Part shown: piece by piece, positions 1,533 to 32,000 of the stretch
Layout: every line of letters starts with the position of its first letter
Position numbering within the stretch: the stretch's first letter is position 1
NCBI RefSeq assembly: GCF_022701215.1
Contig: NZ_CP089976.1
Location: forward strand, 990,001-1,022,000
Direction of reading: 5' to 3'
DNA length: 32,000 nucleotides
Source of the DNA: Moraxella nasovis
GTDB lineage: Bacteria > Pseudomonadota > Gammaproteobacteria > Pseudomonadales > Moraxellaceae
Notes under the pieces: model-generated
The model's database searches: none
Told to the model about the DNA's origin: nothing
What the model saw: only the letters and a program-made list of their open reading frames with translations
Translations under genes and position numbers: made by a program

Positions 1533-1546
1533 GTTTCACATGGAAC
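1533..1546. repeat. degenerate copy of the 14-bp palindrome (GTTTCACATGGAAC, 2 mismatches)
   Basis: Sits just 3' of the hisH stop. Compare with the consensus GTTTCACGTGAAAC found elsewhere in the window. Confidence 0.4.
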
Positions 1547-1547
1547 A

Positions 1548-2195
1548 TCATATTTGCCAATTGACGAAATTTGACAGCAATTTTAGACCAGCGTGATGGC
1601 TTTTTTCTGGGTGAAATTGCGTGATGAATAGATTGTCTTTGATGACACTGGCACAAAATTTTACCCCATAATCACACGTCGCCACAATAGCCCCAGCGTT
1701 GCGAGCATCTGCCATATCAGGGGTGCAATAATAACTGTGCGTAAAATAAAAATGCTCACCGCCACAGCCGTCCCACAGCACATGGTCGGTGTCGGTATTG
1801 ACCGCATTCCAGCCGACATGGGGGATTTTGATTGGTTGGTCGCAGTCTGTCCATGTGTCGTCAAATTTTTGGACATTACCTGCCAAAATACCAAGACAAT
1901 CTACTCGTCCGCCTTCGGTAGAATAATCAAACATCGCCTGCATACCCACACAAATCGCCATGACAGGCTTGGTCAATAAAGCGTCCTTGACTGCCACGTC
2001 CACCCCTGCATTTTTCATGTGCATCATGGCATCGCCAATCGCCCCCACACCCGGTAGCATGACCTTGTCCGCCTGTTTGATGTCGGCAGGTCTATTGGTT
2101 AAGATGACCTTTGCACCTGATTTGGTGAGTGCATTTGCCACAGAATATAAATTCCCCACGCCATAGTCAAGCAAAGCAATTTTTGAAAAATTCAT
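1548..2195 (-). CDS. hisH: imidazole glycerol phosphate synthase, glutamine amidotransferase subunit
   Basis: 215 aa with class-I GATase features: LLDYGVGNLYSV, PGVGAIGDAM, the nucleophile-Cys context MAICVGMQ, and FHPEKS. A Shine-Dalgarno (SD) AAGGG lies upstream, and the gene follows hisB. Confidence 0.9.
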   Translation of the reverse strand: MNFSKIALLDYGVGNLYSVANALTKSGAKVILTNRPADIKQADKVMLPGVGAIGDAMMHMKNAGVDVAVKDALLTKPVMAICVGMQAMFDYSTEGGRVDCLGILAGNVQKFDDTWTDCDQPIKIPHVGWNAVNTDTDHVLWDGCGGEHFYFTHSYYCTPDMADARNAGAIVATCDYGVKFCASVIKDNLFITQFHPEKSHHAGLKLLSNFVNWQI

Positions 2196-2241
2196 GATAA
2201 ACCCTTAGCCGATATCATTTAGTTGATACAATTAACCTAAT

Positions 2242-2279
2242 ACAATATTAAGTCAATAAAACAATATTAAGTCAATAAA
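2242..2279. repeat. perfect 19-nt tandem duplication (ACAATATTAAGTCAATAAA x2) in the hisB-hisH spacer
   Basis: Read directly: 2242-2260 equals 2261-2279. The pair is flanked by TAGCCGATA (about 2208) and AAGCCGATA (about 2283). Confidence 0.85.
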
Positions 2280-2309
2280 ATTAAGCCGATACAGCCAAAC
2301 ACATTGTTA

Positions 2310-2906
2310 TTACAGCACATTCTTGGTAGATGGCAATGCCCCATTGGCACGCTCATCAATCTCACACGCCATACGCAAGGCACGGGCGAGTGCTTTGAAC
2401 ACGCTTTCTATTTGATGATGGCTGTTCTTGCCTTTTAGGTTGTCAATGTGCAGTGTGATGGCGGCATTGTTGACAAGACCATAAAAAAACTCGCTGAACA
2501 AATCCACGTCCAATCTGCCCACATAAGCACGAGTAAATGGCACGTCCATATGCAGGCTTGGGCGACCTGAAATATCCACCACCACACGGCTTAGGCTCTC
2601 ATCAAGCGGTGCATAAAAATGCCCATAACGGCGAATGCCTTTTTTGTCGCCCAAGGCAATTTTTAGGGCTTGACCAAGTGCGATGCCAATGTCTTCTACG
2701 CTGTGATGGTCATCAATGTGCGTATCGCCTGTGCATTTGATTTCAAGGTCAAACAAACCATGGCGAGTGATTTGCTCTAACATATGATCCAAAAATGGTA
2801 CGCCTGTATCTAGCTGACTTTTGCCTGTGCCGTCAATGTTGATGGCAACAAAAATCTGCGTCTCGGCGGTGTTTCGGCTAATTTGTGCGGTGCGTGGGGC
2901 GTTCAT
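2310..2906 (-). CDS. hisB: imidazoleglycerol-phosphate dehydratase
   Basis: IGPD motifs are present: [41 protein letters not shown] moved the start to the internal ATG at 2906 ([16 protein letters not shown]), which has a GGAG SD. The upstream 20 codons of the listed ORF look non-native. Confidence 0.88.
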
Positions 2907-3026
2907 GACATCTCCTGTCTTGGCATTTGCTTGACAAAAACACCATTTTACACAAAATTTACTCATTTTGGGGGAAATTTTTATGAAAAATCAGCCCCAA
3001 GATGTCATAAACTTATGCCATAAACT

Positions 3027-3055
3027 TTGCCAATCAAAGTGCTTTGGATTATAAT
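3027..3055 (+). promoter_or_regulatory. putative sigma70 promoter for def
   Basis: TTGCCA (3027-3032), a 17-nt spacer, then TATAAT (3050-3055), about 30 nt upstream of the def ATG. Confidence 0.5.
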
Positions 3056-3085
3056 GAGATAACTCAACCTTTAATCGAGATAACT

Positions 3086-3598: not shown

Positions 3599-3630
3599 TC
3601 AAAACATCTAATCAAATCAAAACACCCAAT

Positions 3631-8298: not shown

Positions 8299-8369
8299 TT
8301 AACAAATCAAGCCAATAAAGAAATTTTGCCCGTATGGTTGCCAATGGCGGAAAAATGACTTTGATTAAC

Positions 8370-8462
8370 TTGATTCCTACGGCAGTATTAACTGCATCAG
8401 GTTCAACGGATTTTGTGTTAAAAGACACAATCTCGGCAATCTAAAATTGCACTCCGTCAAGT
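8370..8462 (-). promoter_or_regulatory. TPP (THI-box) riboswitch in the thiC leader
   Basis: The minus strand reads GACGGAGUGCAAUUUUAGAUUGCCGAGAUUGUGUCUUUUAACACAAAAUCCGUUGAACCUGAUGCAGUUAAUACUGCCGUAGGAAUC. It contains the conserved GAACCUGAU...UAAUAC...CGUAGGAA core. A GCCGAGA element stands in for the usual GCUGAGA. Confidence 0.85.
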
Positions 8463-8638
8463 TAATTACATTGTAACACAACAAATCCCCAAAAAACCAA
8501 ACCATATTTTTTGATAAACATAAAATATTTTTATCTTTTAGGGAAAGTCTCTTGTTATTCATCAGTGTGCTTGTTATCATATGGGGTTGTTATCATTTGG
8601 TTGTCATTTTGTTATTCAAGGATTGTATAAGGATTGCT

Positions 8639-10461: not shown

Positions 10462-12969
10462 TCAAACATCTATTTTATCAAATTCATCTCGCCCCACCAC
10501 CGTATTATAAAGCCCCACCTTGTCTTTGTGTCTGTCTAGCCCTGTGTATTCTAGACTACTGTCTTCATAGCGTTTAAATTTATATACCGCATCATTCATC
10601 AGACTGCCATTAAAGACATTTAGGCGGTTTAGCAGAGCAAAATCTGATTGCGTAAGACCTGTTACACGGCGAAATAAATCAGGTTCAAGCTGGGTAATCA
10701 CATCTTCTAGACAATGCTCACGATAATCGGTCAGATACATAAATATGGGTATGCGTGTGGCGAATTTGATGAGTTTTTCTTGGATTTGTTTGCGAAGCGA
10801 TTTGTATTCTTTTTCTTCATCGCTAAGTTCTTTTTTCTCTTTGGGTGTCAGCTCATCGCCTTTTTCTTTTTTTGTTTTTGCCACGTTTTCAGATTTATTG
10901 ATGATTGTCTCAATGTCTTGGTTTAGACTTCTAAATCCTTCAATACCCATTAAAGCTTTCATCGCTTTATCATCATTCATCAGCCGTGTCAATGTGTCGT
11001 TATCCACATTAACAAGTAAAGCACTCTCCCACCGCCGTGCCAAAAGTGTGGCAGTCGTGCCACTCATCGCCATGTCTAGAACGCCGCCTGCATCTATCTG
11101 CTTCATCGTGCTACCATCATAGGCAAGCACAGGCAAAAAGCGGATAAACTCACCCACCTTTTGTTCAGGATTGGTGTTCGTGTTGTCCAACCGACAGCTG
11201 TATTCAGCGATTTGGCGTAAGGCTCTATTGGGAGCAAAATCAAAGACATAGCACTGCTCTTTTAAGATGGTCTCGCCATGTGGGTCGGTGGGGTCATAGT
11301 TTTTAAGCACCCAAGGGGTCTGCACCCGAAATGCCGCCTGAAAATAAGTCTCTGGGCTTGTGGTATTACGGAGCATAAAAATCCCCGTCCACGGAGCGAC
11401 CGATACGCCTGTGGTGAGCTTACCGCAGGAGAGCGTGATGGTCTTGGTGGTCAAAGGATTGCTGCCCATCGCCTGCTGTACAGGGGGCAAGGCTTCTACA
11501 CCAATACCTGCCTGCGTGCCTGCACAGACGATAATTTTATACTCATGAAAAAACTGATTTTGTTTTTGGGCCAATAAATTATTCATCGCAAAACAGCTCG
11601 CCACAGATGGCAAAAACCAAAAAGTATGCAGTAGCCCATTTTTTAGATGCACATCACTAAATGGCATGGGCGGTTTTTTTGCCCCCATTTTTAGGGTGTC
11701 TACGGTCATCTCAGGCAGTTTGTTTTGGATAAATTCTAGCCAGCGTTGCACTTCGTTCTCATGGATAAACCGTGCCGTATCGCCATCACCTGTCGCACGA
11801 AAAAACTCATTTAAATCAAATTCATTAAACTCGCCTTTCTTTGCCACATCACGAATGCTATCAGGGAGCTGATAGGTCATCATCACCATCTTGGGTAGTG
11901 ATAAATACGGATTTTTGCCGTATGTGTCGTCCCACTCGGCTTTGGCTTTTTGTTCGTCTGAATACGTCCAGTTAAAAATCTGCTCTTCAATAAATTCGCC
12001 TGACGACATCGCCCGAAATGGCGTGCCTGACAAATACAAATAGTGGTCTGTGGTAATCGGCAAAAGCTCTTGGTCAAAGTCTTTTAAAAATGAGCTTTCG
12101 GCAAATTCTTGCTCTTTTTTGTCGGTTTCGCCATCAAATAAATCACGAGCATTCTCACGCCACGCCCCATAATGATATTCATCAAAAATCACGCAGTCCC
12201 AATTTAGGGCGTGTACCCATTCATTTTTGGCTTTGATACCGCCTGATCTGGTTTTGCCCAAAAAGTCTTGAAATGACCCAAAGCAGACAATCGGGCGATT
12301 TTTATCCGCCGTGTCAATCGTCAAATCGCTGTTTTTGCTGATGAACTGCCAACCTACAAAATCCACATGGCTTTTTAGGTCATTTTCCCAAGCATCTTGC
12401 ACCGCAGGCTTGAACGTCAAAATCAGTATACGCTCCCAACCCATCGCACGGGCAAGCTGATAACTGGCAAAAGTCTTGCCAAATCGCATTTTGGCATTCC
12501 ACAAAAATCTGGGCGATTTGCCATGATTGGCAGGCTCTGCCGAAAAACTCTCAAAATACGCCTTGGTGCGTGCCACCGCCTGTGCCTGCTCAGGACGTAG
12601 CCCAAAATCTGCCGTGCGCCTGTCCGCCATCGCCTTGCCTGTCTTAACAGTCAAAAATGCCGAATGGACATCGTCTAGTGTGCAAGCGAACCACTCGCCA
12701 TTTGGTCTGTCAAAACCCATCTTAATCAGGGCTTGATGAATGGCATGGTCGCTAAATGTCGTGCCGTCATCACGAACCGCCAGCTCATCAAAGACAATCC
12801 GCCAGCTCTGGCGTGGTGTGGCAATCGGATACTGTGCCTGCACACGTTCCAAGGCGGTCTTGGTGGTGTAGCCGACCTTGATACAGCCGTCAAACCGCTC
12901 ATCGGTATAGGCATAAATGCGGGGTGGGTTTAGGGTGTCGGTGAGATTGACGGGGGTTTGTGGGTTCAT
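10462..12969 (-). CDS. T5orf172/GIY-YIG-like N-terminal domain fused to an SF2 (ResIII/DEAD-like) helicase; candidate effector of the island operon
   Basis: 835 aa. Residues ~17-100, RIYAYTDERFDGCIKVGYTTKTALERVQ...GEWF, match the T5orf172 (MUG113, GIY-YIG superfamily) pattern. The helicase has motif I AKMRFGKTF (~158-167), motif II VIFDEYH (~260-266) and motif III LSGTPFRA (~313-320). The C-terminal region has a charged coiled-coil-like stretch, KEKGDELTPKEKKELSDEEKEYKSLRKQIQEK. The ATG overlaps the upstream stop (ATGA). Confidence 0.8.
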   Translation of the reverse strand: MNPQTPVNLTDTLNPPRIYAYTDERFDGCIKVGYTTKTALERVQAQYPIATPRQSWRIVFDELAVRDDGTTFSDHAIHQALIKMGFDRPNGEWFACTLDDVHSAFLTVKTGKAMADRRTADFGLRPEQAQAVARTKAYFESFSAEPANHGKSPRFLWNAKMRFGKTFASYQLARAMGWERILILTFKPAVQDAWENDLKSHVDFVGWQFISKNSDLTIDTADKNRPIVCFGSFQDFLGKTRSGGIKAKNEWVHALNWDCVIFDEYHYGAWRENARDLFDGETDKKEQEFAESSFLKDFDQELLPITTDHYLYLSGTPFRAMSSGEFIEEQIFNWTYSDEQKAKAEWDDTYGKNPYLSLPKMVMMTYQLPDSIRDVAKKGEFNEFDLNEFFRATGDGDTARFIHENEVQRWLEFIQNKLPEMTVDTLKMGAKKPPMPFSDVHLKNGLLHTFWFLPSVASCFAMNNLLAQKQNQFFHEYKIIVCAGTQAGIGVEALPPVQQAMGSNPLTTKTITLSCGKLTTGVSVAPWTGIFMLRNTTSPETYFQAAFRVQTPWVLKNYDPTDPHGETILKEQCYVFDFAPNRALRQIAEYSCRLDNTNTNPEQKVGEFIRFLPVLAYDGSTMKQIDAGGVLDMAMSGTTATLLARRWESALLVNVDNDTLTRLMNDDKAMKALMGIEGFRSLNQDIETIINKSENVAKTKKEKGDELTPKEKKELSDEEKEYKSLRKQIQEKLIKFATRIPIFMYLTDYREHCLEDVITQLEPDLFRRVTGLTQSDFALLNRLNVFNGSLMNDAVYKFKRYEDSSLEYTGLDRHKDKVGLYNTVVGRDEFDKIDV

Positions 12970-13647
12970 TGGGTTTTTCTCGCTTTTAAGAAAAATTCAA
13001 TTTCATCATTTTGAACTTTTTGATGATAAAAATTTAAAAAATCTTGTTCAAGATATTTATGACCATCTAATAAAAAAGGAATATGATTTCCCAAATCATT
13101 TGGCGAGATAATTAAATCTAATTTATCCGTCAATTCATTTTTATCCAAAAATTCTTGAACAATTTGTGTCGTTGTGGGATTACTATATAAATCAAATTCT
13201 TGATAATTTAATCCATCAATTGACGCCAGTTCTTTTCGTTTTTCGTATTTAAAGTCTTGAATAACATCTTGACAAAATTCCTTAAAATTTTCAAAATCTG
13301 TTGGCTTTTTAATCGCTTTTGTTGATAAAATAGAAACCTGTCGGAATTTGCTTTTATCTGACAAATCTCTAATATAAAAACATTTTTTTGCTATTTCTAT
13401 TACGAATTTCTTTTGGTGGATAATCCACATAAAATTCACAATTATCCAAATCAAAATGCTGTTTTAACTCATCTCTACCGCTATAAAAACAGCTTAAAAA
13501 ATCTTTTAAATCCAAAATATCATCAGCATTAGTAACAATACCGCCCAAATTTTGCTCGGCATTATCCCTAATAGATTGAAAATGTTTAACTAGATTAGTT
13601 TGATTAAAAGATACATTGCGTGTTTTTAACGTATAATTTTTACTCAT
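12966..13647 (-). pseudogene. unknown-function gene (~226 aa if intact) split by a frameshift at an A7 tract
   Basis: The N-terminal part (ATG 13647, MSKNYTLKTRNVSF...EIRNRNSKKMFLY*) stops at 13369. The C-terminal part continues in the +1 frame to 12966 (...KKCFYIRDLSDKSKF...KARKTQ*). With A6 instead of A7 at 13383-13389 the two parts join as ...NSKKCFYIRDL.... I recognise no domain. Confidence 0.6.
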
Positions 13648-15175
13648 TTTCAAGCTCCATCGGTCTAACCATCTTTTCAATAAAAGCAATCTCATCATCA
13701 GATAAACCATATTTTTGATACAATTCATCATCTGTCCACGATTTTGAAAAGTCTTGCATAGGTACGAATTGATAAACTTTTTGAGTTCCATCTTGTGTAT
13801 TCTTTTTAAGTAGAACCAAAAAGCGGAAAAATCTTGTACTAATATAAGACATTACATTTTTGCAAATTTGTTCATTTTCAAATGTTCCAATAACTAAATA
13901 AGTTTCTGTACAAGCTGTATTTGGTTTACCCAAAAATGGTTTTCCTAATACCCAAAAATTAGATGAAATTCTTTCCCCATAAGCTCTTGCAATATAAACT
14001 TTATACTGATTAACCCAATTTCTATTCCTATCTATATCATTTAAACTTATATAATTTATACCATCGCTTGTATACAATTCAACACTGTTACTATTTGATT
14101 TTGATTGTCCACGATATGATGTAGAAAAACCGAATGGCTTTCTTGAACTAACCAAATTTGAAAAACTTTTTTCTTTAAAATTTTTAATCTTTCTTAATAT
14201 AGAAATTGCCTGATTAAAACGAATAAAAGTTTCAGTGCCATCTTCTTTTAAATATCTATTCATTCTTGAAACAATACTATTTCCTTCAATGGTTTCCACC
14301 AAGCAAGTTCCAGAGTGGCTCTTATCCCACAAAAAATAAGAAACCCCGCCTGAAATATCCACGCCTGGAAAGCAATCATTTGAATCAATATAATCAACCA
14401 AAACTTTTAGACGTCTATCATTTAGCATTTCATCACGAAATTCATCAAGCCCTTTTCCACCTGCAAACCAACGACTAGGCGTAATCATAATCAGATAATG
14501 CGGATTTAATTTTTTGGCTTGCTGGATAAATTTATGATAAATAGGCGTGGCACTTGCAGAAGCACCACCATCCGATAATTGATACGGCGGATTACCAATA
14601 ATTACATCAAATTTCATTTTACTAATTTCCAATTCATAAAAAGATGGGTGGATAAATGCATACGCATGGGTCTCAAATTCATGCTCACGGCTGATACTGC
14701 CGTTACTTTTGTCATAGACATCTTGACTTGCTCCACAGGCTGTGCATTTGCCGTTTTGCCATGTATGCTCGCTTTGGGGGAAAAAGATATTGCCATCATT
14801 ATCATCAAATGCTGTACAAATGCTGTATTCTCCCCCTGCTCGCTTGGCACAATAGACGCTCCGCCGTGATAATAGAGCGGTCAGATGTGTGATGGCGATA
14901 CCGTAGAGTTGCTGGCTAAATATATGATTGAGCCGTTCTTGTAGGTCTGGGATTTGGTGTTCTAAGCCTTTGATGAGACGTTTGGTGATTTCTCGTAGGA
15001 ATACACCTGATTTGCAGACAGGATCCAAAAATGTCGTGTTTGGATTTTCAAATAATGCCTGGGGCAGTCTGTCCAATATTTCATTGACGAGCTTTGGCGG
15101 GGTAAAAACTTCATCATTGGATAAATTGGCAAGGCATTCCAAAACGTCTGGGTTGTAATTGATTAAATCACTCAT
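13640..15175 (-). CDS. N6-adenine DNA methyltransferase, gamma-class Eco57I-like, with a large C-terminal putative target-recognition region
   Basis: 511 aa. It has N-terminal DEVFTPPKLVNEILD, motif I variant FLDPVCKSGVFL, and motif IV FDVIIGNPPYQL (NPPY at residues 195-198, nt ~14582-14593). About 310 aa follow motif IV. Confidence 0.85.
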   Translation of the reverse strand: MSDLINYNPDVLECLANLSNDEVFTPPKLVNEILDRLPQALFENPNTTFLDPVCKSGVFLREITKRLIKGLEHQIPDLQERLNHIFSQQLYGIAITHLTALLSRRSVYCAKRAGGEYSICTAFDDNDGNIFFPQSEHTWQNGKCTACGASQDVYDKSNGSISREHEFETHAYAFIHPSFYELEISKMKFDVIIGNPPYQLSDGGASASATPIYHKFIQQAKKLNPHYLIMITPSRWFAGGKGLDEFRDEMLNDRRLKVLVDYIDSNDCFPGVDISGGVSYFLWDKSHSGTCLVETIEGNSIVSRMNRYLKEDGTETFIRFNQAISILRKIKNFKEKSFSNLVSSRKPFGFSTSYRGQSKSNSNSVELYTSDGINYISLNDIDRNRNWVNQYKVYIARAYGERISSNFWVLGKPFLGKPNTACTETYLVIGTFENEQICKNVMSYISTRFFRFLVLLKKNTQDGTQKVYQFVPMQDFSKSWTDDELYQKYGLSDDEIAFIEKMVRPMELENE

Positions 15176-15861
15176 TTTTTATACTCCTTGTCGCTTAAAT
15201 CAATATCCAAAAAATACACAGGCGGGTATTCTTTTATCGGCTCAGGGATATAAGCGTCATCGCCCAAATCCGAAAATAACGGCAATTCACGCTCGCTGGA
15301 TTTATTGATTAAATCAGGATAGACATATTCACGGCGTATCATATCCGTGCCAAGCATTGACCATTCACTAAACACAATGGGCGTGCCGTCTTTCTGCTTT
15401 AATGATAAAGCATCTCCACATAAGATATTTTTTGATAATAAAAAACGTGCCACGTCTATACAGCGTGGGTTAATGTTTTTAAAATGAGATGAGTAATGAT
15501 TTTGAAAAATCGCTAATAACCGCTCACGACATTCAGCGACATTGTCAGCCAACAGCTCAATACCATAAATGGAGCTAATGGCGGTAATGGCGTTTAATTC
15601 GTAGTTGTATTGAATTTTTTTGTGTTTTTGGTAAATGGCGGTAAGTTTTCGCTGTAATATCACCGCAAGAAAATTCCCCGTACCACAGGCAGGCTCTAAA
15701 AAGGTGGCTTCGGGGTCGGTGCATTGGTGAGCGACCAAATCAAGCATGGCATTGACTTCACGCTCATTTGTATAAACTTCGCCATGGTCTTTGATACGCT
15801 CACGAGACTTGGTCTGAGATGGGGACTGGGGGTGTGTTTGAGTGGCTGATTTAACTTGCAT
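15172..15861 (-). CDS. methyltransferase-like SAM-binding protein lacking the catalytic (D/N/S)PP(Y/F/W) motif
   Basis: 229 aa. It has GEVYTNEREVNAMLDLV (like the GEVFTP helix), canonical motif I FLEPACGTGNFL, motif II/III-like YGIELLADNV, and ILCGDALS. I could find no NPPY-type tetrad in the sequence. Its stop overlaps the next ATG (ATGA). Confidence 0.7.
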   Translation of the reverse strand: MQVKSATQTHPQSPSQTKSRERIKDHGEVYTNEREVNAMLDLVAHQCTDPEATFLEPACGTGNFLAVILQRKLTAIYQKHKKIQYNYELNAITAISSIYGIELLADNVAECRERLLAIFQNHYSSHFKNINPRCIDVARFLLSKNILCGDALSLKQKDGTPIVFSEWSMLGTDMIRREYVYPDLINKSSERELPLFSDLGDDAYIPEPIKEYPPVYFLDIDLSDKEYKK

Positions 15862-15952
15862 GGGATTGCCCCGTGCAGGTCAGATGGTTTGCTAAATGAG
15901 ATAAGAATGGGGTATGATGGGATACTAAGAGATTTTGGGTATGGCTTAGACT

Positions 15953-16106
15953 AGGTACGCAGGTACGCAGGTACGCAGGTACGCAGGTACGCAGGTACGC
16001 AGGTACGCAGGTACGCAGGTACGCAGGTACGCAGGTACGCAGGTACGCAGGTACGCAGGTACGCAGGTACGCAGGTACGCAGGTACGCAGGTACGCAGGT
16101 ACGCAG
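15953..16106. repeat. perfect tandem octanucleotide repeat (AGGTACGC)x19 plus a partial unit; the minus-strand unit is GCGTACCT
   Basis: Counted directly: units start at 15953 + 8k for k = 0 to 18, with no substitutions. It lies 92 nt upstream of the first ATG of the island operon (15861). Confidence 0.97.
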
Positions 16107-16178
16107 AGCATTATAGCGGGCAAATACAGCCTGTCAAGACAATACATGACAATTTCCAATAAAAAGTGAGAAAACTTG

Positions 16179-16207
16179 ATTCTATCATAAATAATAATAC
16201 CAACCAA
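16179..16207 (-). promoter_or_regulatory. putative sigma70 promoter upstream of the repeat, which would place the repeat in a ~310-nt leader
   Basis: The minus strand reads TTGGTT (16207-16202), a 17-nt spacer, then TAGAAT (16184-16179). This rests on sequence pattern only, and other promoters cannot be excluded. Confidence 0.3.
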
Positions 16208-16323
16208 GATGATTAGGGTGGTTTTGTTAATAAATACAGGTGTATTGATAAAGTAGAGATTCTTTGTATATCATACCGGTGAGATAATAGATAACACCAC
16301 AATTCATGCAAGCCCATTTGTAT

Positions 16324-16337
16324 GTTTCACATGAAAC
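16324..16337. repeat. 14-bp palindrome copy, central variant (GTTTCACATGAAAC)
   Basis: Intergenic, between the island and the guaA terminator. The extended context is TATGTTTCACATGAAACATA. Confidence 0.7.
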
Positions 16338-16371
16338 ATATATTTTGAATTCATCTTATCATCACACCCAA

Positions 16372-20665: not shown

Positions 20666-21853
20666 TTAGGTATTATTTAGGTCGGTTGAATCATCTTGTG
20701 ATGATTTAGGATAAATTTCACCATGTTTCACGTGAAACATCTGATAAGTTTTTAACGATGCATCTTTATGCTGCGTCCTAAGCTTTTGGGTGATAATATC
20801 ATTCATCTGTATATTTAGACTACTGATTATGATTTGACATGGTAGTTTTAACACCACATCAAGCAATGTATGCACAGCCTTATTATCAAGCTCAGCATCA
20901 ATATCGTCAATTAAAACCATAGGCATGGCTTTTGCATTCTCATGCTCACAAATCATATAAAGCTGCGACAGCCGAAGTGCTACGATGAGCAACTTTTTCT
21001 CGCCACGAGATAAGATATTTGCCGCCTGCTCACGCAATTTTTCGCCATGACTGACTTTTTTTAGCACCACTGATACATCTGCACGGTGTGCACCCACTCT
21101 GGTGTAGCCCAACTCAATATCACCACTAAGTCGTGACTTAAGCACCTCAAATAGCCCTTGTGTCGCATCAAAACCTGCCAAATAGTTTAATTCAATCTGG
21201 CCTTGATACTGTGGTAAAAGTCGCTCTAGCATGGATTGAAATATCATTTGCCAACGCTCAAACACAGCTTGGCGATGGGTGTGTAAATGATGAGCGTGAT
21301 ATGACAGCTGTCTATCCCATGCTACTAGCTCTTCTTGGCGACCAAGCACAGCTGGCGATTTTAATAAAGCATTTCGCTGCTTTAAAAGTCTTTGATAAGC
21401 AAGCCATTCAGGATAAAATTGCGATTCAAGATGAAAACAAAGCCAGTCTAATAACTGCCTGCGACTACCACTTCCCTCCTCTAAAATCGCCATTCCTGAC
21501 GGATCAATTAGCAGCGTCGGCAAGCGAAAGCTTAGCGTGCTTTGAGATGAGACATGAATATTATTAACTTTAAGCGTGGTTGTGGCAAGATGTGTTGCAT
21601 CCAGCGTCTTTTGCAAAGCAAATGTCGCACCATCGGCAGTGGCTGCCCATACCGTGCAAGTTTTGGTGTGATGCGTGATATAGCGTTTTGGCTCATGATG
21701 GCGGAACGTTTTTCCACGAGAAAGCAAAAACACCGCCTCAAGAAGCGATGTTTTGCCACTGCCATTTAACCCCACCATTAGGTTGCACGATGCCAGATTA
21801 AGACTGACATGTTTGATATTACGCAGCTGATGTACATTAATCTTGGTGATCAC
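20666..21853 (-). CDS. recF: DNA replication and repair protein RecF
   Basis: Walker A GLNGSGKTSLLEA and the SMC-like signature SRGEKKLL. I prefer the GTG start at 21853, 1 nt after the dnaN stop, because it places LRNI at the position of E. coli FRNI. The listed ATG at 21880 would overlap dnaN by 26 nt and add 9 residues. Confidence 0.85.
   Translation of the reverse strand: MITKINVHQLRNIKHVSLNLASCNLMVGLNGSGKTSLLEAVFLLSRGKTFRHHEPKRYITHHTKTCTVWAATADGATFALQKTLDATHLATTTLKVNNIHVSSQSTLSFRLPTLLIDPSGMAILEEGSGSRRQLLDWLCFHLESQFYPEWLAYQRLLKQRNALLKSPAVLGRQEELVAWDRQLSYHAHHLHTHRQAVFERWQMIFQSMLERLLPQYQGQIELNYLAGFDATQGLFEVLKSRLSGDIELGYTRVGAHRADVSVVLKKVSHGEKLREQAANILSRGEKKLLIVALRLSQLYMICEHENAKAMPMVLIDDIDAELDNKAVHTLLDVVLKLPCQIIISSLNIQMNDIITQKLRTQHKDASLKTYQMFHVKHGEIYPKSSQDDSTDLNNT
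20725..20738. repeat. 14-bp palindrome copy, perfect (GTTTCACGTGAAAC; the extended 18-bp ATGTTTCACGTGAAACAT spans 20723-20740)
   Basis: Lies inside recF, where it is translated as MFHVKH. Confidence 0.9.
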
Positions 21854-24506: not shown

Positions 24507-24646
24507 GCCACAATACTCCAAAAAAAACACCCTTAACGGTTCAGCTAAGACTAAGTCACTCAATTTACATGAGTTCATACACAAATATCATTAAGTGCAT
24601 ATAGTAACACAGCTTAAATCAATAGCCAAGAATTTTTGATTAAAAT

Positions 24647-24853
24647 TGTGGATAACTTTATGGAAAACTCTGTTTATAACTTTATCAACAGAGTTTTCCA
24701 CAGTTTATTGACAAAGTTTAAACAAATTTTTCCACAATATAAGTTAATGTTTTTAAATAAATTAATTAACTTTTCCACAATTTTAGTATCTCTTTATTAT
24801 TATTATATTCTCTATTTATTTTAAGAATAAGAAAATTAAAAATCTGTGGATAA
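24647..24853. other. candidate oriC: DnaA boxes plus an AT-rich unwinding region in the dnaA-rpmH spacer
   Basis: Perfect TTATCCACA boxes in reverse orientation at 24647-24655 and 24845-24853. One-mismatch TTTTCCACA boxes at 24694-24702, 24728-24736 and 24771-24779. 24781-24840 is about 12% GC by hand count, with repeated CTCT(T/A)TTTATT-like elements. Gene orientation diverges here. Confidence 0.7.
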
Positions 24854-24974
24854 CATTTTAAATTTTGTAATTTTTGCTAAAAAATAAAGGCATAAAATCT
24901 GTTCTTAGGACATCTATATAACACCATATTAGTACCACCAATAAGATGCGATTATCACTAAAAACAAAAAAATA

Positions 24975-25003
24975 TTTGACCTTAAAAATCATTTTTAGTA
25001 TAA
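24975..25003 (+). promoter_or_regulatory. strong sigma70 promoter for rpmH-rnpA
   Basis: TTGACC (24975-24980), a 17-nt spacer, then TATAAT (24998-25003). Confidence 0.65.
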
Positions 25004-25067
25004 TGAGTAAGATTTTTGCTAATCTTAGGCAAAAAGAATTTAAATTTGTCATTCATTAGTGACTTAA

Positions 25068-25262
<195 letters not shown>

Positions 25263-27951: not shown

Positions 27952-29391
27952 ATGACTCAGCTTCCTACTATCTCAGCCATTGCCACGCCCACAGGTCAAG
28001 GGGGTGTTGGTATTATTCGATTATCTGGCGGTAAGGCGTATGATATTGGGCTTGCTATAACAGGCAAGAATTCATTAAAGCCACGTCATGCTCACTTTGT
28101 GAAGTTTTATGGCGAAGGTAGTACTGTCATTGATGAGGGTGTGGTGATTTATTTTAATGCACCGCATTCATTTACAGGCGAAGATGTCGTAGAGCTACAA
28201 GGCCATGGCGGTATGGTACTACAAAACCTACTGCTTGCTAGAACCTTTGAGCTTGGTGCAAGACAGGCTGCAGCTGGCGAATTTTCAATGCGTGCCTTTG
28301 ATAATGACAAGCTTGATTTGGTGCAGGCTGAGGCAATTAGTGATGCAATCAGTGCCACTACTGCAGCTGAAGCGATGAGTGCCATACGCTCATTGTCGGG
28401 CGAGTTTTCAGCATTAATTAATGATTTGCAAGATGATATTATTAATTTACGACTGTATGTGGAGGCAAGCATTGATTTTAGTGATGAAGAAGATGTGGAT
28501 TTTTTGTCAGATGGGGTAATTTTAAAGCGGCTAAACGACATTTTACAGGTGATGGATGCTATTTTGGCAACTGCCAAACAAGGTCAGATTTTAAAAGATG
28601 GTGTTCATGTGGTGTTGGCAGGCAAGCCAAACGCAGGCAAGTCAAGTCTGTTAAATCGATTAGCAAAAACAGATCGTGCCATCGTCACTGATATTGCAGG
28701 GACAACTCGAGATACACTAGAAGAAACATTGGTGCTAAATGGATTGAAAATTCATCTAACTGATACAGCAGGCTTAAGAGATACGAAAGATAAGGTAGAA
28801 AAAATCGGCATTGATAGGGCAAAGGCTGCTATTAATCAAGCTGATATTTTAATCTTGGTTTATGATGTTTGTACAGATGAAGATCCTATTAGGCTTGCCG
28901 TTGAGTTATTTGCCAATCATGATGTGCTGTATTTTCAAGAAAATATCGCTCATAGACTTATGTTGGTGGCAAATAAGTGCGATTTATTAGATGTTTCACG
29001 TGAAACAAAACAAAAAGACTTAACGGGGTTATTAAATGCCAACCTAGAATGGTCTAATGAGTTAAATATTGTGGATTTGACTGATGATATTGTCTATGTT
29101 TCATGTGAAACAGGTGAGGGGATAGATGGGCTAAGTCAGTCTTTATGCCAGAAAGTGGGCTTTTACCCATCTGAGAATAGTTTGATTGCACGCACACGTC
29201 ATTTAGATGCCATTAGTCGTGCCAAGTTTTATGCTGATGAAGCTAAAACGCAGCTGACCGTTTTTCATGCAGGCGAGTTGGTTGCAGAAAGTCTAAGACT
29301 GTCTGCTCAATCACTTGGTGAGATTACAGGTCAGGTAAGTAGTGATGAGCTTTTAGGTAAGATTTTTTCAAGCTTTTGTATAGGAAAATAG
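27952..29391 (+). CDS. mnmE: tRNA modification GTPase MnmE (TrmE)
   Basis: 479 aa with N-terminal IATPTGQGGVGIIRLSG, G-domain motifs GKPNAGKSSLLN and DTAGLR, NKCD, and the C-terminal FCIGK. Confidence 0.95.
   Translation: MTQLPTISAIATPTGQGGVGIIRLSGGKAYDIGLAITGKNSLKPRHAHFVKFYGEGSTVIDEGVVIYFNAPHSFTGEDVVELQGHGGMVLQNLLLARTFELGARQAAAGEFSMRAFDNDKLDLVQAEAISDAISATTAAEAMSAIRSLSGEFSALINDLQDDIINLRLYVEASIDFSDEEDVDFLSDGVILKRLNDILQVMDAILATAKQGQILKDGVHVVLAGKPNAGKSSLLNRLAKTDRAIVTDIAGTTRDTLEETLVLNGLKIHLTDTAGLRDTKDKVEKIGIDRAKAAINQADILILVYDVCTDEDPIRLAVELFANHDVLYFQENIAHRLMLVANKCDLLDVSRETKQKDLTGLLNANLEWSNELNIVDLTDDIVYVSCETGEGIDGLSQSLCQKVGFYPSENSLIARTRHLDAISRAKFYADEAKTQLTVFHAGELVAESLRLSAQSLGEITGQVSSDELLGKIFSSFCIGK
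28993..29006. repeat. 14-bp palindrome copy, perfect (GTTTCACGTGAAAC)
   Basis: Lies inside mnmE, where it is translated as VSRET. Confidence 0.9.
29098..29111. repeat. 14-bp palindrome copy, central variant (GTTTCATGTGAAAC)
   Basis: Lies inside mnmE, about 100 nt from the previous copy, and is translated as VSCET. Confidence 0.8.
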
Positions 29392-29393
29392 TC

Positions 29394-29861
29394 GTGCATT
29401 GTCCTTTTTGTAGTGCTTGTGAGACCAAAGTAATTGATTCTAGACTGTGTGCAGATGGATTTCAAGTCCGCCGACGCCGACATTGTTTAGAGTGCTGCGA
29501 AAGATTTACCACCTTTGAGGTGATGGAGGTGGTTATGCCTAGAATTGTCAAGGCTAGTACTAAGATTGAGCCTTATGATGCCGCCAAATTACGACGATCC
29601 ATCTCTTTACCTCTGCAAAAACGCCCTATAAGCATTGATGAGATTGAGGCGATGATTAGCCGTATTGAAAAAACGCTGCGACAGACAGGCGAGCGTGAGA
29701 TTAGCTCAAAACAGCTTGGCGAGATTGTGATGAATGAGTTAAAAGCCATCGATGACGTGGCGTATGTGCGATTTGCCAGTGTGTATCGGGATTTTCAAGA
29801 TTTAGAAGCTTTTAAAGCTGAGCTTGCTAATATCAAACCTAAAGGCGATAGCCATGACTGA
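29394..29861 (+). CDS. nrdR: transcriptional repressor NrdR
   Basis: A GTG start at 29394 gives (M)HCPFCSACETKVIDSRL, the NrdR zinc ribbon (CPFC...CLEC), followed by an ATP-cone. An AGGA SD lies 8 nt upstream. The start is 2 nt after the mnmE stop. Confidence 0.9.
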   Translation: MHCPFCSACETKVIDSRLCADGFQVRRRRHCLECCERFTTFEVMEVVMPRIVKASTKIEPYDAAKLRRSISLPLQKRPISIDEIEAMISRIEKTLRQTGEREISSKQLGEIVMNELKAIDDVAYVRFASVYRDFQDLEAFKAELANIKPKGDSHD

Positions 29862-30900
29862 TAGTAGTGATTATACATTTATGCAAGCTGCCTTAGGTCT
29901 TGCCAAAAAAGGACTGTATACCACTCGCCCTAACCCTTGTGTTGGTTGTGTTATTGTTAAGGATAACTTAATAATCGGACAAGGTTTTCACCCTAAAGCA
30001 GGACTGCCACATGCCGAAATTTACGCCTTAAATGACGCTAAAGCACATGGGTATGATATAAAAGGAGCGACTGCGTATGTAACGCTTGAGCCGTGTAGTC
30101 ATTATGGGCAAACCCCACCTTGTAGTAAAGCACTGATAGAAAGTGGTATCAATAAGGTGATTATCGCTACTTTTGATCCTAATCCGCAAGTGGCAGGTCG
30201 TGGCATATCTATGCTACAAAATGCAGGTATTGACACGCAAATAGGCGTGTGTGAGCGTGAAGCACGCAAGCTTAATGCAGGGTTTTTAAAGGCGATGGCA
30301 ACAGGTTTGCCATATGTACGCGTCAAAATTGCCACAAGCCTAGATGGCCGCACAGCGATGGCAAGCGGTGAGTCAAAATGGATTACAGGTGAGATGGCAC
30401 GAATAGATGTGCAAAAGCTTCGTGCTAGAAGTGGGGCTATTATTACAGGTTCAAGGACGGTTTTGGCGGACAATCCTGCATTAACGGTTCGTCTTGACAC
30501 GCTTGATTTGGTAAATATTTCGCCACCTAAAATTGTGGTGATGGACAGAACGGGTAAATTAAAAAATACCGATAATTATCAGGTATTTAACAATAAAAAC
30601 ACCCTACTTTGGCAAGATGATATTAAGAGTTTGCTGCAAACATTAGTAAGTGAGTATCAATGCTATGACGTGCTTGTAGAGGCAGGCAGTACACTTGCCA
30701 CGAGTTTTTTGATAGCAGGATTTGTTGATGAGCTGATTGTGTATCAAGCCCCTTGTTTGCTTGGTAAAACAGCAAGGGCGATGTTTGATGGTAAATTTGA
30801 TCAGTTAGCCGACAGATTAAGCTTTAATTTAGAGAGCTGTGAGCGATTAGGTGATGATTTAAAAATGACATTTGGGCAAAAACCACAGTGTCGTAAATGA
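29854..30900 (+). CDS. ribD: bifunctional riboflavin biosynthesis protein RibD (deaminase/reductase)
   Basis: Deaminase zinc motifs HAEIYAL and LEPCSHYGQTPPC, then the reductase domain. The start at ATG 29854 (MTDSSDYTFMQAAL) overlaps the nrdR stop (ATGACTGA). Confidence 0.92.
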   Translation: MTDSSDYTFMQAALGLAKKGLYTTRPNPCVGCVIVKDNLIIGQGFHPKAGLPHAEIYALNDAKAHGYDIKGATAYVTLEPCSHYGQTPPCSKALIESGINKVIIATFDPNPQVAGRGISMLQNAGIDTQIGVCEREARKLNAGFLKAMATGLPYVRVKIATSLDGRTAMASGESKWITGEMARIDVQKLRARSGAIITGSRTVLADNPALTVRLDTLDLVNISPPKIVVMDRTGKLKNTDNYQVFNNKNTLLWQDDIKSLLQTLVSEYQCYDVLVEAGSTLATSFLIAGFVDELIVYQAPCLLGKTARAMFDGKFDQLADRLSFNLESCERLGDDLKMTFGQKPQCRK

Positions 30901-30901
30901 G

Positions 30902-31153
30902 TTATCCACAGATTTGTATTGCATAATCAAACACGCCAAAACCGCCATAAAAACATGAATAACATCTGTGGATAACTTAAATTTTAGAACGCATGTTAGA
31001 CGGCTGATGATGATATTAGGTTGCTAAGCCTTTTATTATCAAAGGCTTAGAATAAACTAAGAATATTTTTAGTTTCACGTGAAACAAATTTTGATTGTGG
31101 ATAAGTTTTAAACATTATTGATGGTTACCGTGTGTATAATTAAGTTATCCACA
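30902..31153. promoter_or_regulatory. cluster of four perfect DnaA boxes in the ribD-ribE spacer
   Basis: TTATCCACA at 30902-30910 (forward), 30967-30975 (reverse), 31096-31104 (reverse) and 31145-31153 (forward). An AT-rich tract at 31261-31330, about 11% GC by hand count, follows. Confidence 0.8.
31072..31085. repeat. 14-bp palindrome copy, perfect (GTTTCACGTGAAAC)
   Basis: Intergenic, inside the ribD-ribE DnaA-box cluster. Confidence 0.9.
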
Positions 31154-31344
31154 GCATAACTTTTTAATTATCCTGATTGGTGGCTTGATGTGTATGTGAG
31201 AGTGTTAATGGTTGTGAAGACTGTTTGTTTTGACTATCATAAAATATCAATTAACCGAATGATTGATTTTTTAAATTAATAATAATCTTTAATAACAGCA
31301 TTAGTATGTATTAATAATTTAAAAAATTAAACAATGGGTAAATT

Positions 31345-32000
31345 ATGTTTACAGGCATCATAGAAACCACAGGCACGCTCACCGCCATCATCCCCACAGG
31401 TGGAGATGTGCGATTGGTCATATCTGCCCCCAAGCTTGATTTTACTGATGTGAAATTGGGTGATTCTATTGCGTCCAACGGCATCTGCTTGACGGTGGTT
31501 GCCATAGATGGGACAAGTTATGCAGTAGATGTTTCATGTGAAACTTTATCTACCACCGCTTTGGGGGTGTGGCGAGTGGGCGATACGCTCAATCTAGAAA
31601 AGGCAATGCTTCCTACCACTCGTTTTGGCGGTCATATTGTCGCAGGTCATGTGGACGGCGTGGGTAAAATCGCCAAAATCGCCAAGGACGCACGTTCGGT
31701 ATATATAGAAGTGGTGTTGCCGCCAGAGATTATGAAATACACCGCTGACAAAGGCTCTATCACTGTGGACGGCATTTCTCTTACGACCAACCGCATTAAG
31801 CACAACCAAAACATCGTCTGCCTAAATATCATACCGCATACCGCCGATATGACCAACATCGCCAAGCATTGGGCGGTGGGTCGTGCGGTCAATATAGAGG
31901 TGGATTTGGTGGCACGCTATTTGGAGCGACTTGTTTTTGGGAGAAAAGAGTGTGAAGCAAAGACAAGTAACATCACCGAAGAGTTGTTGATAAAAAGCGG
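31345..32000 (+). CDS. ribE: riboflavin synthase (alpha chain); 3' end at or beyond the window edge
   Basis: My own translation from ATG 31345: MFTGIIETTGTLTAI...LGDSIASNGICLTV...GHIVAGHVDGVGKI...GSITVDGISLTTN. It shows the two lumazine-binding repeats. No stop occurs before nt 32000, so it is absent from the ORF track. Confidence 0.9.
   Translation, partial: MFTGIIETTGTLTAIIPTGGDVRLVISAPKLDFTDVKLGDSIASNGICLTVVAIDGTSYAVDVSCETLSTTALGVWRVGDTLNLEKAMLPTTRFGGHIVAGHVDGVGKIAKIAKDARSVYIEVVLPPEIMKYTADKGSITVDGISLTTNRIKHNQNIVCLNIIPHTADMTNIAKHWAVGRAVNIEVDLVARYLERLVFGRKECEAKTSNITEELLIKS
31531..31544. repeat. 14-bp palindrome copy, central variant (GTTTCATGTGAAAC)
   Basis: Lies inside ribE, where it is translated as VSCET. 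Confidence 0.8.

What the first reader, a model, noticed from the sequence alone, without database searches (positions are those of the whole stretch)
1533..31544. A 14-bp palindrome, GTTTCACGTGAAAC, occurs far too often for chance, in both genes and spacers
I found three perfect copies: 20725-20738 in recF, 28993-29006 in mnmE, and 31072-31085 intergenic. Three more differ only at the central CG (CACATG or CATGTG): 16324-16337 intergenic, 29098-29111 in mnmE, and 31531-31544 in ribE. One 2-mismatch copy sits at 1533-1546, after hisH. Most copies carry AT on the 5' side, and the extended 18-mer ATGTTTCACGTGAAACAT is perfect at 20723-20740. A given 14-mer is expected about 1e-4 times in 32 kb. 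The copies sit in unrelated housekeeping genes in at least two reading frames (MFHVKH versus VSRET/VSCET), so protein-level conservation does not explain them. All three CACGTG hexamers I could find in the window lie inside this motif. Frequent, frame-independent occurrence in core genes is what DNA uptake sequences look like (USS in Pasteurellaceae, DUS in Neisseriaceae), and I know of no uptake sequence described for Moraxellaceae. Alternatively it could be a site for a dimeric global regulator or a methylation target. The CG to TG/CA variants would fit deamination of a methylated cytosine, but that is speculative.
Basis: partly seen in the sequence, partly recalled or inferred. Interest (0 to 1): 0.7.

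Follow-up and report, generated by a model that had tools for sequence, protein, structure and literature searches.

The report
Centromere-like parS sites flanking oriC
The repeated 14-base palindrome is the core of parS, the near-universal bacterial "centromere" bound by the ParB chromosome-segregation protein; it clusters where expected, around the replication origin of Moraxella nasovis, so it is a well-known element and not a DNA uptake signal.

Summary
Seven copies of GTTTCACGTGAAAC (three perfect, three with one mismatch, one with two) sit at the stated coordinates, against about 0.14 expected by chance.

The interpretation as a DNA uptake sequence does not hold. With one more base on each side the motif is TGTTTCACGTGAAACA, the canonical chromosomal parS consensus (TGTTNCACGTGAAACA). 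The window is the oriC region of Moraxella nasovis, and the sites lie -23, -8.5, -4, +4, +4, +6 and +7 kb from oriC.

All 22 other Moraxella species fetched carry 1-12 such sites within about 10 kb of yidC, at the same gene positions (recF tail, MnmE loop, ribE codon 62, ribD-ribE spacer). The DNA motif is kept even where the surrounding peptide varies.

Loci 57-200 kb from oriC carry 0-1 site per 21 kb. Origin-centred loci in the same species carry 6-12. True Neisseria uptake sequences run evenly at 1.1-1.4 per kb.

I could not locate the Moraxella parB gene with these tools, so ParB binding is inferred.

Side observations:
- Several Moraxella lineages have almost no ACGT genome-wide, and their parS cores are mostly CAYRTG.
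- A conserved second DnaA-box cluster in the ribD-ribE spacer encloses a parS.
- A restriction-modification island carries an 8-bp tandem repeat.

Verdict: already known, low interest.

The parts
1532..1547 (.). Weak or degenerate parS (GGTTTCACATGGAACA) in the fabF-hisH spacer, about 23 kb left of oriC
   Evidence: It has 3 mismatches to the strict 16-mer and 1 to TGTTYCAYRTGRAACA. CP011377 and CP011158 carry TGTTTCACGTGGAACA at the same position.
16323..16338 (.). parS with a CACATG core (TGTTTCACATGAAACA) in the spacer downstream of guaA, about 8.5 kb left of oriC
   Evidence: CP011377 and CP011158 carry a perfect TGTTTCACGTGAAACA downstream of guaA.
20724..20739 (.). Perfect parS (TGTTTCACGTGAAACA) inside the recF C-terminal region, encoding MFHVKH, about 4 kb left of oriC
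   Evidence: One search shows 16 of 17 Moraxella loci that include recF carry a site in or just after recF. In M. lacunata and M. nonliquefaciens a second copy overlaps the recF stop codon.
24585..25127 (.). Context: the dnaA-rpmH spacer, the presumed oriC. It has a DnaA-box cluster at 24647-24853 followed by an AT-rich stretch.
   Evidence: DnaA boxes. The cumulative GC-skew minimum and the switch in gene orientation fall here. Sequence. The equivalent cluster is present in the Moraxella loci that include this spacer.
28992..29007 (.). Perfect parS in mnmE, inside a hypervariable loop between the NKxD and VSCxTG motifs, encoding DVSRET, about 4 kb right of oriC
   Evidence: One search shows the loop varies in length and sequence among 23 species yet always keeps 1-3 parS copies.
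29097..29112 (.). parS with a CATGTG core (TGTTTCATGTGAAACA) in mnmE, encoding YVSCET
   Evidence: Many of the Moraxella species carry a site at this position.
31071..31086 (.). parS (AGTTTCACGTGAAACA) in the ribD-ribE spacer, flanked by four perfect DnaA boxes (30902, 30967, 31096, 31145)
   Evidence: Many of the Moraxella loci that include this spacer have 1-3 parS copies in it, and nearly all have one or more (mostly 2-5) perfect DnaA boxes there.
31530..31545 (.). parS with a CATGTG core (TGTTTCATGTGAAACT) in ribE codons 62-67, encoding DVSCET
   Evidence: One search shows the same position codes for the conserved DVSRETL peptide. A majority of the 22 aligned sequences use exactly the parS codons GTT TCA CGT GAA AC, while four have drifted synonymously and lost the site.

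Best explanation
The palindromes are origin-proximal parS sites, the cis-acting 'centromere' of the chromosomal ParABS segregation system of Moraxella nasovis.

Shown here:
- The 16-bp unit equals the canonical parS consensus.
- The sites flank oriC within about 1% of a 2.03-Mb chromosome.
- They are conserved across the genus at the same gene positions, under selection on the DNA itself.
- They thin out 25-30-fold by 60-200 kb from oriC.

Inferred from the well-studied ParB/parS family:
- A ParB dimer recognises each palindrome through its helix-turn-helix domain.
- parS-stimulated CTP binding closes ParB into a clamp that slides onto neighbouring DNA, so the 6-7 sites within about 30 kb nucleate one large partition complex over the origin.
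- That complex is pulled apart by ParA after replication and/or loads an SMC-type condensin that aligns the chromosome arms.
- Perfect CACGTG-core sites (20724, 28992, and 31071, whose only mismatch is at position 1) are probably the strong nucleation sites. The CAYRTG-core sites (16323, 29097, 31530) and the degenerate 1532 site are probably weaker.
For: - Sequence identity. Four of the seven sites match TGTTYCAYRTGRAACA exactly and three with one mismatch, against 0.15 expected. A review table gives TGTTNCACGTGAAACA for B. subtilis, C. glutamicum and B. cenocepacia chromosome 1, TGTTTCACGTGAAACA for H. neptunium and GTTTCACGTGAAAC for M. smegmatis. The literature search for the 14-mer returns almost only ParB/parS papers.
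- Location. The window is fabF-hisHB ... guaA-gyrB-recF-dnaN-dnaA | rpmH-rnpA-yidD-yidC-mnmE-nrdR-ribD-ribE. A DnaA-box cluster and the GC-skew minimum lie at about 24.6-25.1 kb.
- Organism. The window's FabF is 100% identical to that of Moraxella nasovis.
- Conservation. All 22 other Moraxella species have 1-12 sites within about 10 kb of yidC, at orthologous positions.
- DNA-level selection. In MnmE the motif persists in a loop whose peptide and length vary. In ribE the synonymous positions are fixed at the parS bases in most species. The sites use three reading frames, including one that overlaps the recF stop codon.
- Distribution. Origin-centred loci hold 34 sites in 86.5 kb. Seven loci that are 57-200 kb away or in unrelated contexts hold 2 sites in 149.6 kb (Poisson P about 5e-23).
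- Precedent. P. aeruginosa has a four-site cluster next to oriC, 9 of its 10 sites are intragenic, and sites with 1-2 mismatches are still bound.
Against: - No parB or parA gene was found in the window or in any of the 33 Moraxella loci fetched (tblastn). The tools gave no way to target a Moraxella ParB, so the trans-acting partner is inferred.
- The complete M. nasovis genome could not be scanned. Its proteins are not in the gene-position index, so the distal controls come from other Moraxella species.
- Three or four of the seven window sites lack the CACGTG core, and the P. aeruginosa work suggests an intact core matters for ParB affinity.
- There are no binding or ChIP data for any Moraxella species in the held literature.
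Confidence: 0.93

Rival explanations
1. DNA uptake sequence: a short motif recognised by the competence machinery and spread through the genome by biased uptake and recombination.
For: Moraxella is naturally competent, and no uptake sequence has been reported for M. catarrhalis. The motif occurs inside core genes in several reading frames.
Against: Density falls from 0.39 per kb at oriC to 0.013 per kb at distal loci. Real uptake sequences in the orthologous Neisseria region sit evenly at 1.1-1.4 per kb. The motif is not lineage-specific: it is identical to parS in Firmicutes, Actinobacteria and Proteobacteria. It is a perfect palindrome, unlike the asymmetric DUS and USS. gyrB and guaA carry no copy in any species.
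Confidence: 0.02
2. Operator for a dimeric transcription factor that controls a regulon.
For: The site is a 16-bp perfect palindrome, and some copies lie in spacers (16323, 31071).
Against: Most copies are deep inside coding regions or at the 3' ends of genes, not at promoters. The host genes (recF, mnmE, ribE, fmt, rsmB) share no pathway. The distribution follows distance from oriC rather than gene function. The sequence exactly equals parS.
Confidence: 0.03
3. Target of a restriction-modification or methylation system, or a HIP1-like highly iterated palindrome kept up by repair or methylation.
For: The core CACGTG is a typical type II recognition site. Moraxella genomes show strong palindrome avoidance, and the centre of the motif mutates only by CG to TG/CA.
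Against: Restriction targets are avoided, not enriched. CACGTG itself is not over-represented in the window (4 observed, 5.5 expected); only the full 16-mer is. The motif is not genome-wide. Conservation extends over all 16 positions, beyond any 4-6-bp recognition site.
Confidence: 0.01
4. By-product of coding constraints or of a small mobile element (MITE- or REP-like).
For: DVSRETL in RibE and MFHVxQG in RecF are conserved peptides that happen to be able to encode the motif.
Against: Copies occur in spacers and in three reading frames. In MnmE the surrounding peptide is not conserved but the DNA is. Synonymous positions are fixed. The flanks share no similarity (29% mean identity).
Confidence: 0.01

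Closest known systems
Chromosomal parS/ParB (Spo0J) centromere, as defined in Bacillus subtilis and found across most bacterial phyla (consensus TGTTNCACGTGAAACA)
   Same: The 16-bp palindrome is identical. There are several copies with 0-2 mismatches, they concentrate around oriC, and they occur in both genes and spacers.
   Different: In this window the array is compact: seven sites within 30 kb, six of them within 8.5 kb of oriC. In B. subtilis the review table lists 10 sites, 8 of them in the ori domain. Many copies have a CAYRTG core. ParB itself has not been demonstrated for Moraxella here.
Pseudomonas aeruginosa parS1-parS4 cluster next to oriC
   Same: It is a gammaproteobacterial array of several sites next to oriC. 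Nine of the 10 sites are intragenic, there is a hierarchy of perfect and mismatched sites, and one site (parS5) has a central TACATG.
   Different: Pseudomonas uses TGTTCCACGTGGAACA (C at position 5, G at position 12), whereas Moraxella mostly uses T and A. In PAO1 parAB lies about 7 kb from oriC; in Moraxella it is not within about 10 kb of yidC.
DNA uptake sequences (DUS of Neisseriaceae, USS of Pasteurellaceae)
   Same: They are short over-represented motifs found inside core genes in any reading frame, in naturally competent mucosal bacteria.
   Different: DUS and USS are asymmetric and family-specific. DUS occurs about once per kb and evenly spread (measured in Neisseria loci). The Moraxella motif is palindromic, pan-bacterial and confined to the origin region.
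Noc-binding sites (NBS, TATTTCCCGGGAAATA) of Firmicutes
   Same: NBS is a related 16-bp palindrome bound by a ParB paralogue.
   Different: NBS differs at positions 2, 7, 10 and 15 (comparison of the two consensus sequences, from my own knowledge). It is dispersed over the chromosome but largely absent near the terminus. The Moraxella sites have the parS bases at those positions.

Membership tests
Chromosomal parS (ParABS centromere) | 16-bp palindrome matching TGTTNCACGTGAAACA with at most 1-2 mismatches | tested here: met
   Two sites are perfect, three have 1 mismatch, one has 2 and one has 3. All seven are within 1 mismatch of TGTTYCAYRTGRAACA. Consensus taken from the review table.
Chromosomal parS (ParABS centromere) | Sites concentrated in the origin-proximal part of the chromosome | tested here: met
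   oriC was located by the DnaA boxes, the GC skew and the dnaA/rpmH gene layout. The sites lie -23 to +7 kb from it. Related species have 6-12 sites per 21.6 kb at oriC and 0-1 per 21.4 kb at 57-200 kb. The whole M. nasovis chromosome was not scanned.
Chromosomal parS (ParABS centromere) | Conservation of the DNA motif among related genomes, independent of coding constraints | tested here: met
   22 of 22 other Moraxella species carry sites at orthologous positions. See the MnmE loop and ribE codon analyses and the recF stop-codon overlap.
Chromosomal parS (ParABS centromere) | Cognate ParB (and usually ParA) encoded in the same genome | tested here: inconclusive
   tblastn with three ParB sequences found nothing in the window or in 33 Moraxella loci, about 700 kb in total. 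The same queries did find parB in two non-Moraxella loci (L023, L052). The rest of the genome could not be reached.
Chromosomal parS (ParABS centromere) | ParB binds and spreads from the sites (ChIP-seq, EMSA, CTP-dependent clamping) | not testable with these tools
   No experimental data on Moraxella ParB or parS in the held literature.
DNA uptake sequence (DUS/USS) | High, roughly uniform genome-wide density (about 1 per kb) | tested here: not met
   0.39 per kb at oriC against 0.013 per kb at distal loci. The Neisseria positive control has 1.1-1.4 per kb, evenly spaced.
DNA uptake sequence (DUS/USS) | Motif specific to one family of competent bacteria | tested here: not met
   The same sequence serves as parS in Firmicutes, Actinobacteria and Alpha-, Beta- and Gammaproteobacteria. 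It is also seen near yidC in Jeongeupia and in unclassified Gammaproteobacteria loci.
DNA uptake sequence (DUS/USS) | Motif-dependent DNA binding or uptake by the competence pilus | not testable with these tools
   This needs uptake or transformation competition assays. The literature reports no such system in M. catarrhalis.
Highly iterated palindrome (HIP1-like) or restriction-modification target | Genome-wide over-representation of the palindrome | tested here: not met
   The motif is absent or single in six distal 21-kb loci. The CACGTG core alone is not enriched.

The most novel reading that the evidence does not exclude
The Moraxella centromere array may have been shaped by a conflict with genome-wide purging of the tetranucleotide ACGT, caused either by restriction avoidance or by deamination of methylated cytosine.

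In M. catarrhalis, M. cuniculi, M. oculi, M. porci and strains ZJ142 and Pampa, 21-kb loci hold only 1-4 ACGT, against 32-51 expected by a Markov model in the five of these that were tested that way. M. canis, ATCC 23246 and M. pluranimalium are also strongly depleted (3-12 against about 50-83 from base composition). In these lineages about three quarters of parS cores have become CAYRTG, and about one in six of the surviving ACGTs sit inside parS.

ParB in these lineages may have adapted to a CAYRTG core. Separately, the conserved DnaA-box cluster that encloses a parS in the ribD-ribE spacer may link ParB to control of replication initiation.
Probability: 0.3. Interest if true: 0.45.

Novelty: already known. 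Interest (0 to 1): 0.15.

Why it matters
As an element it is textbook, and its main value is for annotation. It marks the centromere of M. nasovis and, together with the DnaA boxes and GC skew, marks the origin. It also removes a tempting false lead about an uptake sequence in Moraxellaceae.

The comparative by-products are modestly interesting to people who study chromosome segregation. They show how a DNA-binding site can be lodged in tolerant protein loops (MnmE) or on pre-adapted peptides (RibE DVSRET, RecF MFHVKQG). They also show how selection for a centromere core can collide with lineage-specific purging of ACGT.

Tried and rejected
- Exact-protein look-ups for window proteins (RibD, HisH, DnaN) and for the M. 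nasovis FabF hit found nothing. The M. nasovis genome is not in the gene-position index, so the window could not be extended in its own genome.
It turned out to be Acinetobacter baumannii OmpA/Omp38 (96-97% identity). That search was wasted for its purpose, though it showed that hit names carry organism names.
- ParB could not be targeted. The list of the best 120 hits would be filled by other genera for any ParB query I could supply. Paper searches for Moraxella with ParB or parS gave nothing relevant.
- The survey by Livny et al. 2007 (PMC2168934) is not held.
- I looked for IS transposases in the insertions of L011, L012 and L019, hoping to sample many dispersed genomic sites through a multi-copy protein. 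None was present.
- Rfam found only a TPP riboswitch, so there is no RNA family at the motif.
- I considered and rejected, from memory of their consensus sequences, Cra/FruR, PurR, NrdR, Fur and FNR boxes; none matches GTTTCAC|GTGAAAC. I also rejected a MITE/REP element, because the flanks are unrelated.
- A paper on M. catarrhalis restriction-modification systems does not mention ACGT, so the cause of the ACGT depletion remains unknown.


Full report
**Observation.** There are three perfect copies of GTTTCACGTGAAAC (20725, 28993, 31072), three with one mismatch at the central CG (16324, 29098, 31531) and one with two mismatches (1533). Dinucleotide-preserving shuffles give 0.14 matches on average, and none of 100 reached 7.

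The flanks show that the real unit is 16 bp, TGTTTCACGTGAAACA. With the degenerate form TGTTYCAYRTGRAACA, four sites match exactly and three with one mismatch, against 0.15 expected. The 30-nt flanks are unrelated (mean 29% identity), so only the palindrome is repeated.

One detail in the finding is wrong. The window has four CACGTG hexamers, and the one at 17758 in guaA lies outside the motif.

**What it is.** A full-text search for the 14-mer returned 28 papers, and the 20 listed deal almost entirely with ParB/parS chromosome segregation or with finding replication origins. A review table gives the chromosomal parS consensus as:
- TGTTNCACGTGAAACA in B. subtilis, C. glutamicum and B. cenocepacia chromosome 1
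- TGTTTCACGTGAAACA in H. neptunium
- GTTTCACGTGAAAC in M. smegmatis

The motif is therefore the canonical bacterial centromere sequence.

**Where it is.** Family searches name the genes in this order:
- fabF', hisH, hisB, def, a thioesterase, an ABC exporter, thiC (with a TPP riboswitch), dadA and rid
- a 5.7-kb restriction-modification-like island
- guaA, gyrB, recF, dnaN and dnaA on the minus strand
- rpmH, rnpA, yidD, yidC, mnmE, nrdR, ribD and ribE on the plus strand

The dnaA-rpmH spacer holds a DnaA-box cluster (24647-24853) followed by AT-rich DNA. The cumulative GC skew reaches its minimum there and gene orientation flips there. The window is therefore the oriC region. Its FabF is 100% identical to that of Moraxella nasovis, on a 2.03-Mb contig. 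The seven sites lie about -23.3, -8.5, -4.1, +4.1, +4.2, +6.2 and +6.7 kb from oriC, which is within about 1% of the chromosome.

**Conservation.** A scan of one genome per species with YidC returned 22 other Moraxella species with about 10 kb on each side. Every one has 1-12 sites within 2 mismatches of the 16-mer. The 58 non-Moraxella loci have 0-2.

The sites fall at the same gene positions across species:
- inside mnmE in 22 of 22 species
- at ribE codon 62 in 15 of the 21 loci that include ribE
- in or just after recF in 16 of 17
- in the ribD-ribE spacer
- in fmt and rsmB and after dprA, further to the right

The two outlying window sites also have orthologues. The complete genomes CP011377 and CP011158 carry TGTTTCACGTGGAACA in the fabF-hisH spacer and a perfect site downstream of guaA.

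**Selection acts on the DNA.**
- In MnmE the sites lie in a loop between the NKxD and VSCxTG GTPase motifs. The loop varies from about 20 to 60 residues and has an otherwise unconserved sequence, yet it always holds 1-3 copies of the motif, read as (D/N)V(S/P)RET.
- In RibE the conserved peptide DVSRETL is written with exactly GTT TCA CGT GAA AC in most species, while four species have drifted synonymously and lost the site.
- In RecF the motif encodes the conserved C-terminal MFHV(K/E)QG in another frame. In M. lacunata and M. nonliquefaciens a second copy overlaps the stop codon, TGT TCC ACG TGA|AACA.

Sites inside genes are normal for parS: 9 of the 10 P. aeruginosa sites are in coding sequence.

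**parS or uptake sequence?** The two ideas predict different distributions, so I fetched Moraxella DNA away from oriC through FabF and phosphomannomutase homologues.

| Genome | Origin-centred locus | Distal loci |
|---|---|---|
| M. lacunata NCTC10359 | 12 sites | 0 at 57-78 kb; 1 at 86-107 kb |
| Strain ZJ142 | 6 sites | 0 at 73-95 kb |
| CP011158 | not fetched | 2 at 7.5-29 kb (the orthologues above); 0 strict at 107-129 kb on the other side |
| M. bovis CP087817 | not fetched | 0, about 175-196 kb from the end of the record |

Pooled, four origin-centred loci hold 34 sites in 86.5 kb (0.39 per kb). Seven distal or unrelated loci hold 2 sites in 149.6 kb (0.013 per kb; Poisson P about 5e-23).

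As a positive control, the orthologous regions of six named Neisseria species carry 1.1-1.4 copies of GCCGTCTGAA per kb, evenly spaced. A dense origin cluster with rare isolated sites further out is the known parS pattern. It is not the pattern of an uptake sequence. In addition, uptake sequences are lineage-specific and asymmetric, whereas this motif is pan-bacterial and palindromic.

**Mechanism (inferred from the family).** ParB dimers bind each palindrome. parS-triggered CTP binding turns ParB into a sliding clamp that spreads over neighbouring DNA. The clustered sites build one partition complex over the origin, and ParA and/or SMC loading then use that complex for segregation (abstracts). 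In P. aeruginosa, perfect sites bind best, sites with 1-2 mismatches bind more weakly, and the CACGTG core appears to matter. I therefore expect 20724 and 28992 (perfect) and 31071 (intact core, one mismatch at position 1) to be the main nucleation sites, and the CAYRTG sites to be weaker.

**What is missing.** I could not find parB. It is not in the window or in the 33 Moraxella loci held. The remaining tools could not target it, and the held literature has nothing on the chromosomal ParABS system of Moraxella. The M. nasovis genome itself could not be scanned. These gaps keep my confidence at about 0.93 rather than higher.

**The CG to TG/CA variants.** Across 144 Moraxella sites the consensus is TGTTYCAYRTGRAACA. 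The central CG varies only by transitions: 84 CG, 34 CA, 26 TG and no transversions.

The variants are lineage-dependent. Two groups of species are ACGT-poor:
- M. catarrhalis, M. cuniculi, M. oculi, M. porci and strains ZJ142 and Pampa have only 1-4 ACGT per 21 kb. For the five of these tested, a Markov model expects 32-51. In ZJ142 the depletion also holds at the distal locus (1 observed, 51 expected), so it is genome-wide there.
- M. canis, ATCC 23246 and M. pluranimalium are also strongly depleted, with 3-12 ACGT against about 50-83 expected from base composition.

In these ACGT-poor lineages only 14 of 55 parS sites keep a CG core, against 70 of 89 in the other lineages (Fisher P = 3e-10, not corrected for phylogeny). 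About one in six of the surviving ACGTs lie inside parS; in M. cuniculi it is the only ACGT in 21.6 kb, and in M. catarrhalis two of three.

In M. nasovis itself ACGT is only mildly depleted (64 observed, 109 expected).

**Verdict.** The uptake-sequence interpretation is rejected. The element is a canonical origin-proximal parS array, which is already known and of low interest, with a few comparative curiosities recorded separately.

Noticed in passing
window 30902-31153 (ribD-ribE spacer); the same spacer in L001-L022: A second cluster of DnaA boxes lies 6 kb from the dnaA-rpmH cluster and encloses the parS at 31071. It has four perfect TTATCCACA boxes and one with one mismatch, and AT-rich DNA follows. 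Nearly all Moraxella loci that include the spacer have one or more (mostly 2-5) perfect boxes there, and many also have 1-3 parS copies. It could be a DnaA-titrating or reactivating locus (like datA, DARS or the B. subtilis DnaA-box clusters), or part of the origin.
   Followed up: partly
L002, L003, L006-L010, L013, L014, L021, L085 (Moraxella sp. Pampa, ZJ142, M. oculi, M. cuniculi, M. porci, M. canis, ATCC 23246, M. pluranimalium, M. catarrhalis): The tetranucleotide ACGT is strongly depleted. The most extreme loci hold 1-4 copies per 21 kb against 32-51 expected by a Markov model. L009, L010 and L013 hold 11-12 against about 83 expected from base composition. In ZJ142 the depletion also holds at a locus 73-95 kb from oriC. 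The same lineages mostly have CAYRTG cores in their parS sites, and about one in six surviving ACGTs are inside parS. The cause (restriction avoidance or 5mC deamination) is unknown, and a paper on M. catarrhalis restriction-modification systems does not mention it.
   Followed up: partly
window, whole 32 kb: Several 4-bp palindromes are strongly avoided in M. nasovis (observed / Markov-expected): CGCG 3/66, GCGC 8/103, GGCC 11/130, CCGG 9/41, GATC 39/157, TCGA 23/80. This would fit a species rich in restriction-modification systems.
   Followed up: no
window 15953-16106: A perfect tandem repeat of the 8-bp unit AGGTACGC, 19.2 copies at 100% identity, lies inside the 118-aa ORF 15851-16207 (-), directly upstream of the methyltransferase ORFs. 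The unit length is not a multiple of 3, and the upstream ORF and the methyltransferase ORF are in different frames. This looks like a slipped-strand phase-variation switch.
   Followed up: partly
window 10462-16207: A low-GC (0.32-0.40) island lies between rid and guaA. It has an 835-aa T5orf172 + ResIII protein that matches the type IIG restriction enzyme-methyltransferase model in PADLOC, a 162-aa ORF with no family hit, and an Eco57I/MmeI-type N6-adenine methyltransferase split into 229-aa and 511-aa ORFs. M. bovoculi has an aminotransferase gene at this position instead.
   Followed up: partly
window 28950-29120; mnmE in L001-L022: The MnmE GTPase has a hypervariable insertion loop between its G4 (NKxD) and G5 (VSCxTG) motifs. 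It runs from about 20 to 60 residues, and its only recurring content is the parS-encoded peptide (D/N)V(S/P)RET, present in 1-3 copies.
   Followed up: yes
L005 ~3765, L019 ~3830, L022 ~4199 (M. lacunata group and M. nonliquefaciens): A parS copy overlaps the recF stop codon (TGT TCC ACG TGA|AACA). It lies next to the in-frame copy that encodes FHVKQG.
   Followed up: yes
L086 19382, L083 20764, L084 20779: An isolated parS (TGTTCCACGTGAAACA) lies inside the yigZ (Impact_N) gene, 86-107 kb from oriC in M. lacunata. It is conserved in M. nonliquefaciens. A second isolated site (TGTTCCACGTGGAACT) lies between the Band_7 and NfeD genes in the M. bovoculi Logan contigs and in CP011158, 107-129 kb from oriC in the latter.
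   Followed up: partly
window 8357-8466 (-): A TPP riboswitch lies upstream of thiC (Rfam RF00059, 83.9 bits).
   Followed up: no
L085, L086 compared with L081 and the window: The fabF-hisHB-def block lies 18-23 kb from oriC in M. nasovis, CP011377 and CP011158, but 73-107 kb away and in a different gene context in ZJ142, M. lacunata and M. nonliquefaciens. The origin-flanking region has therefore been rearranged within the genus.
   Followed up: no
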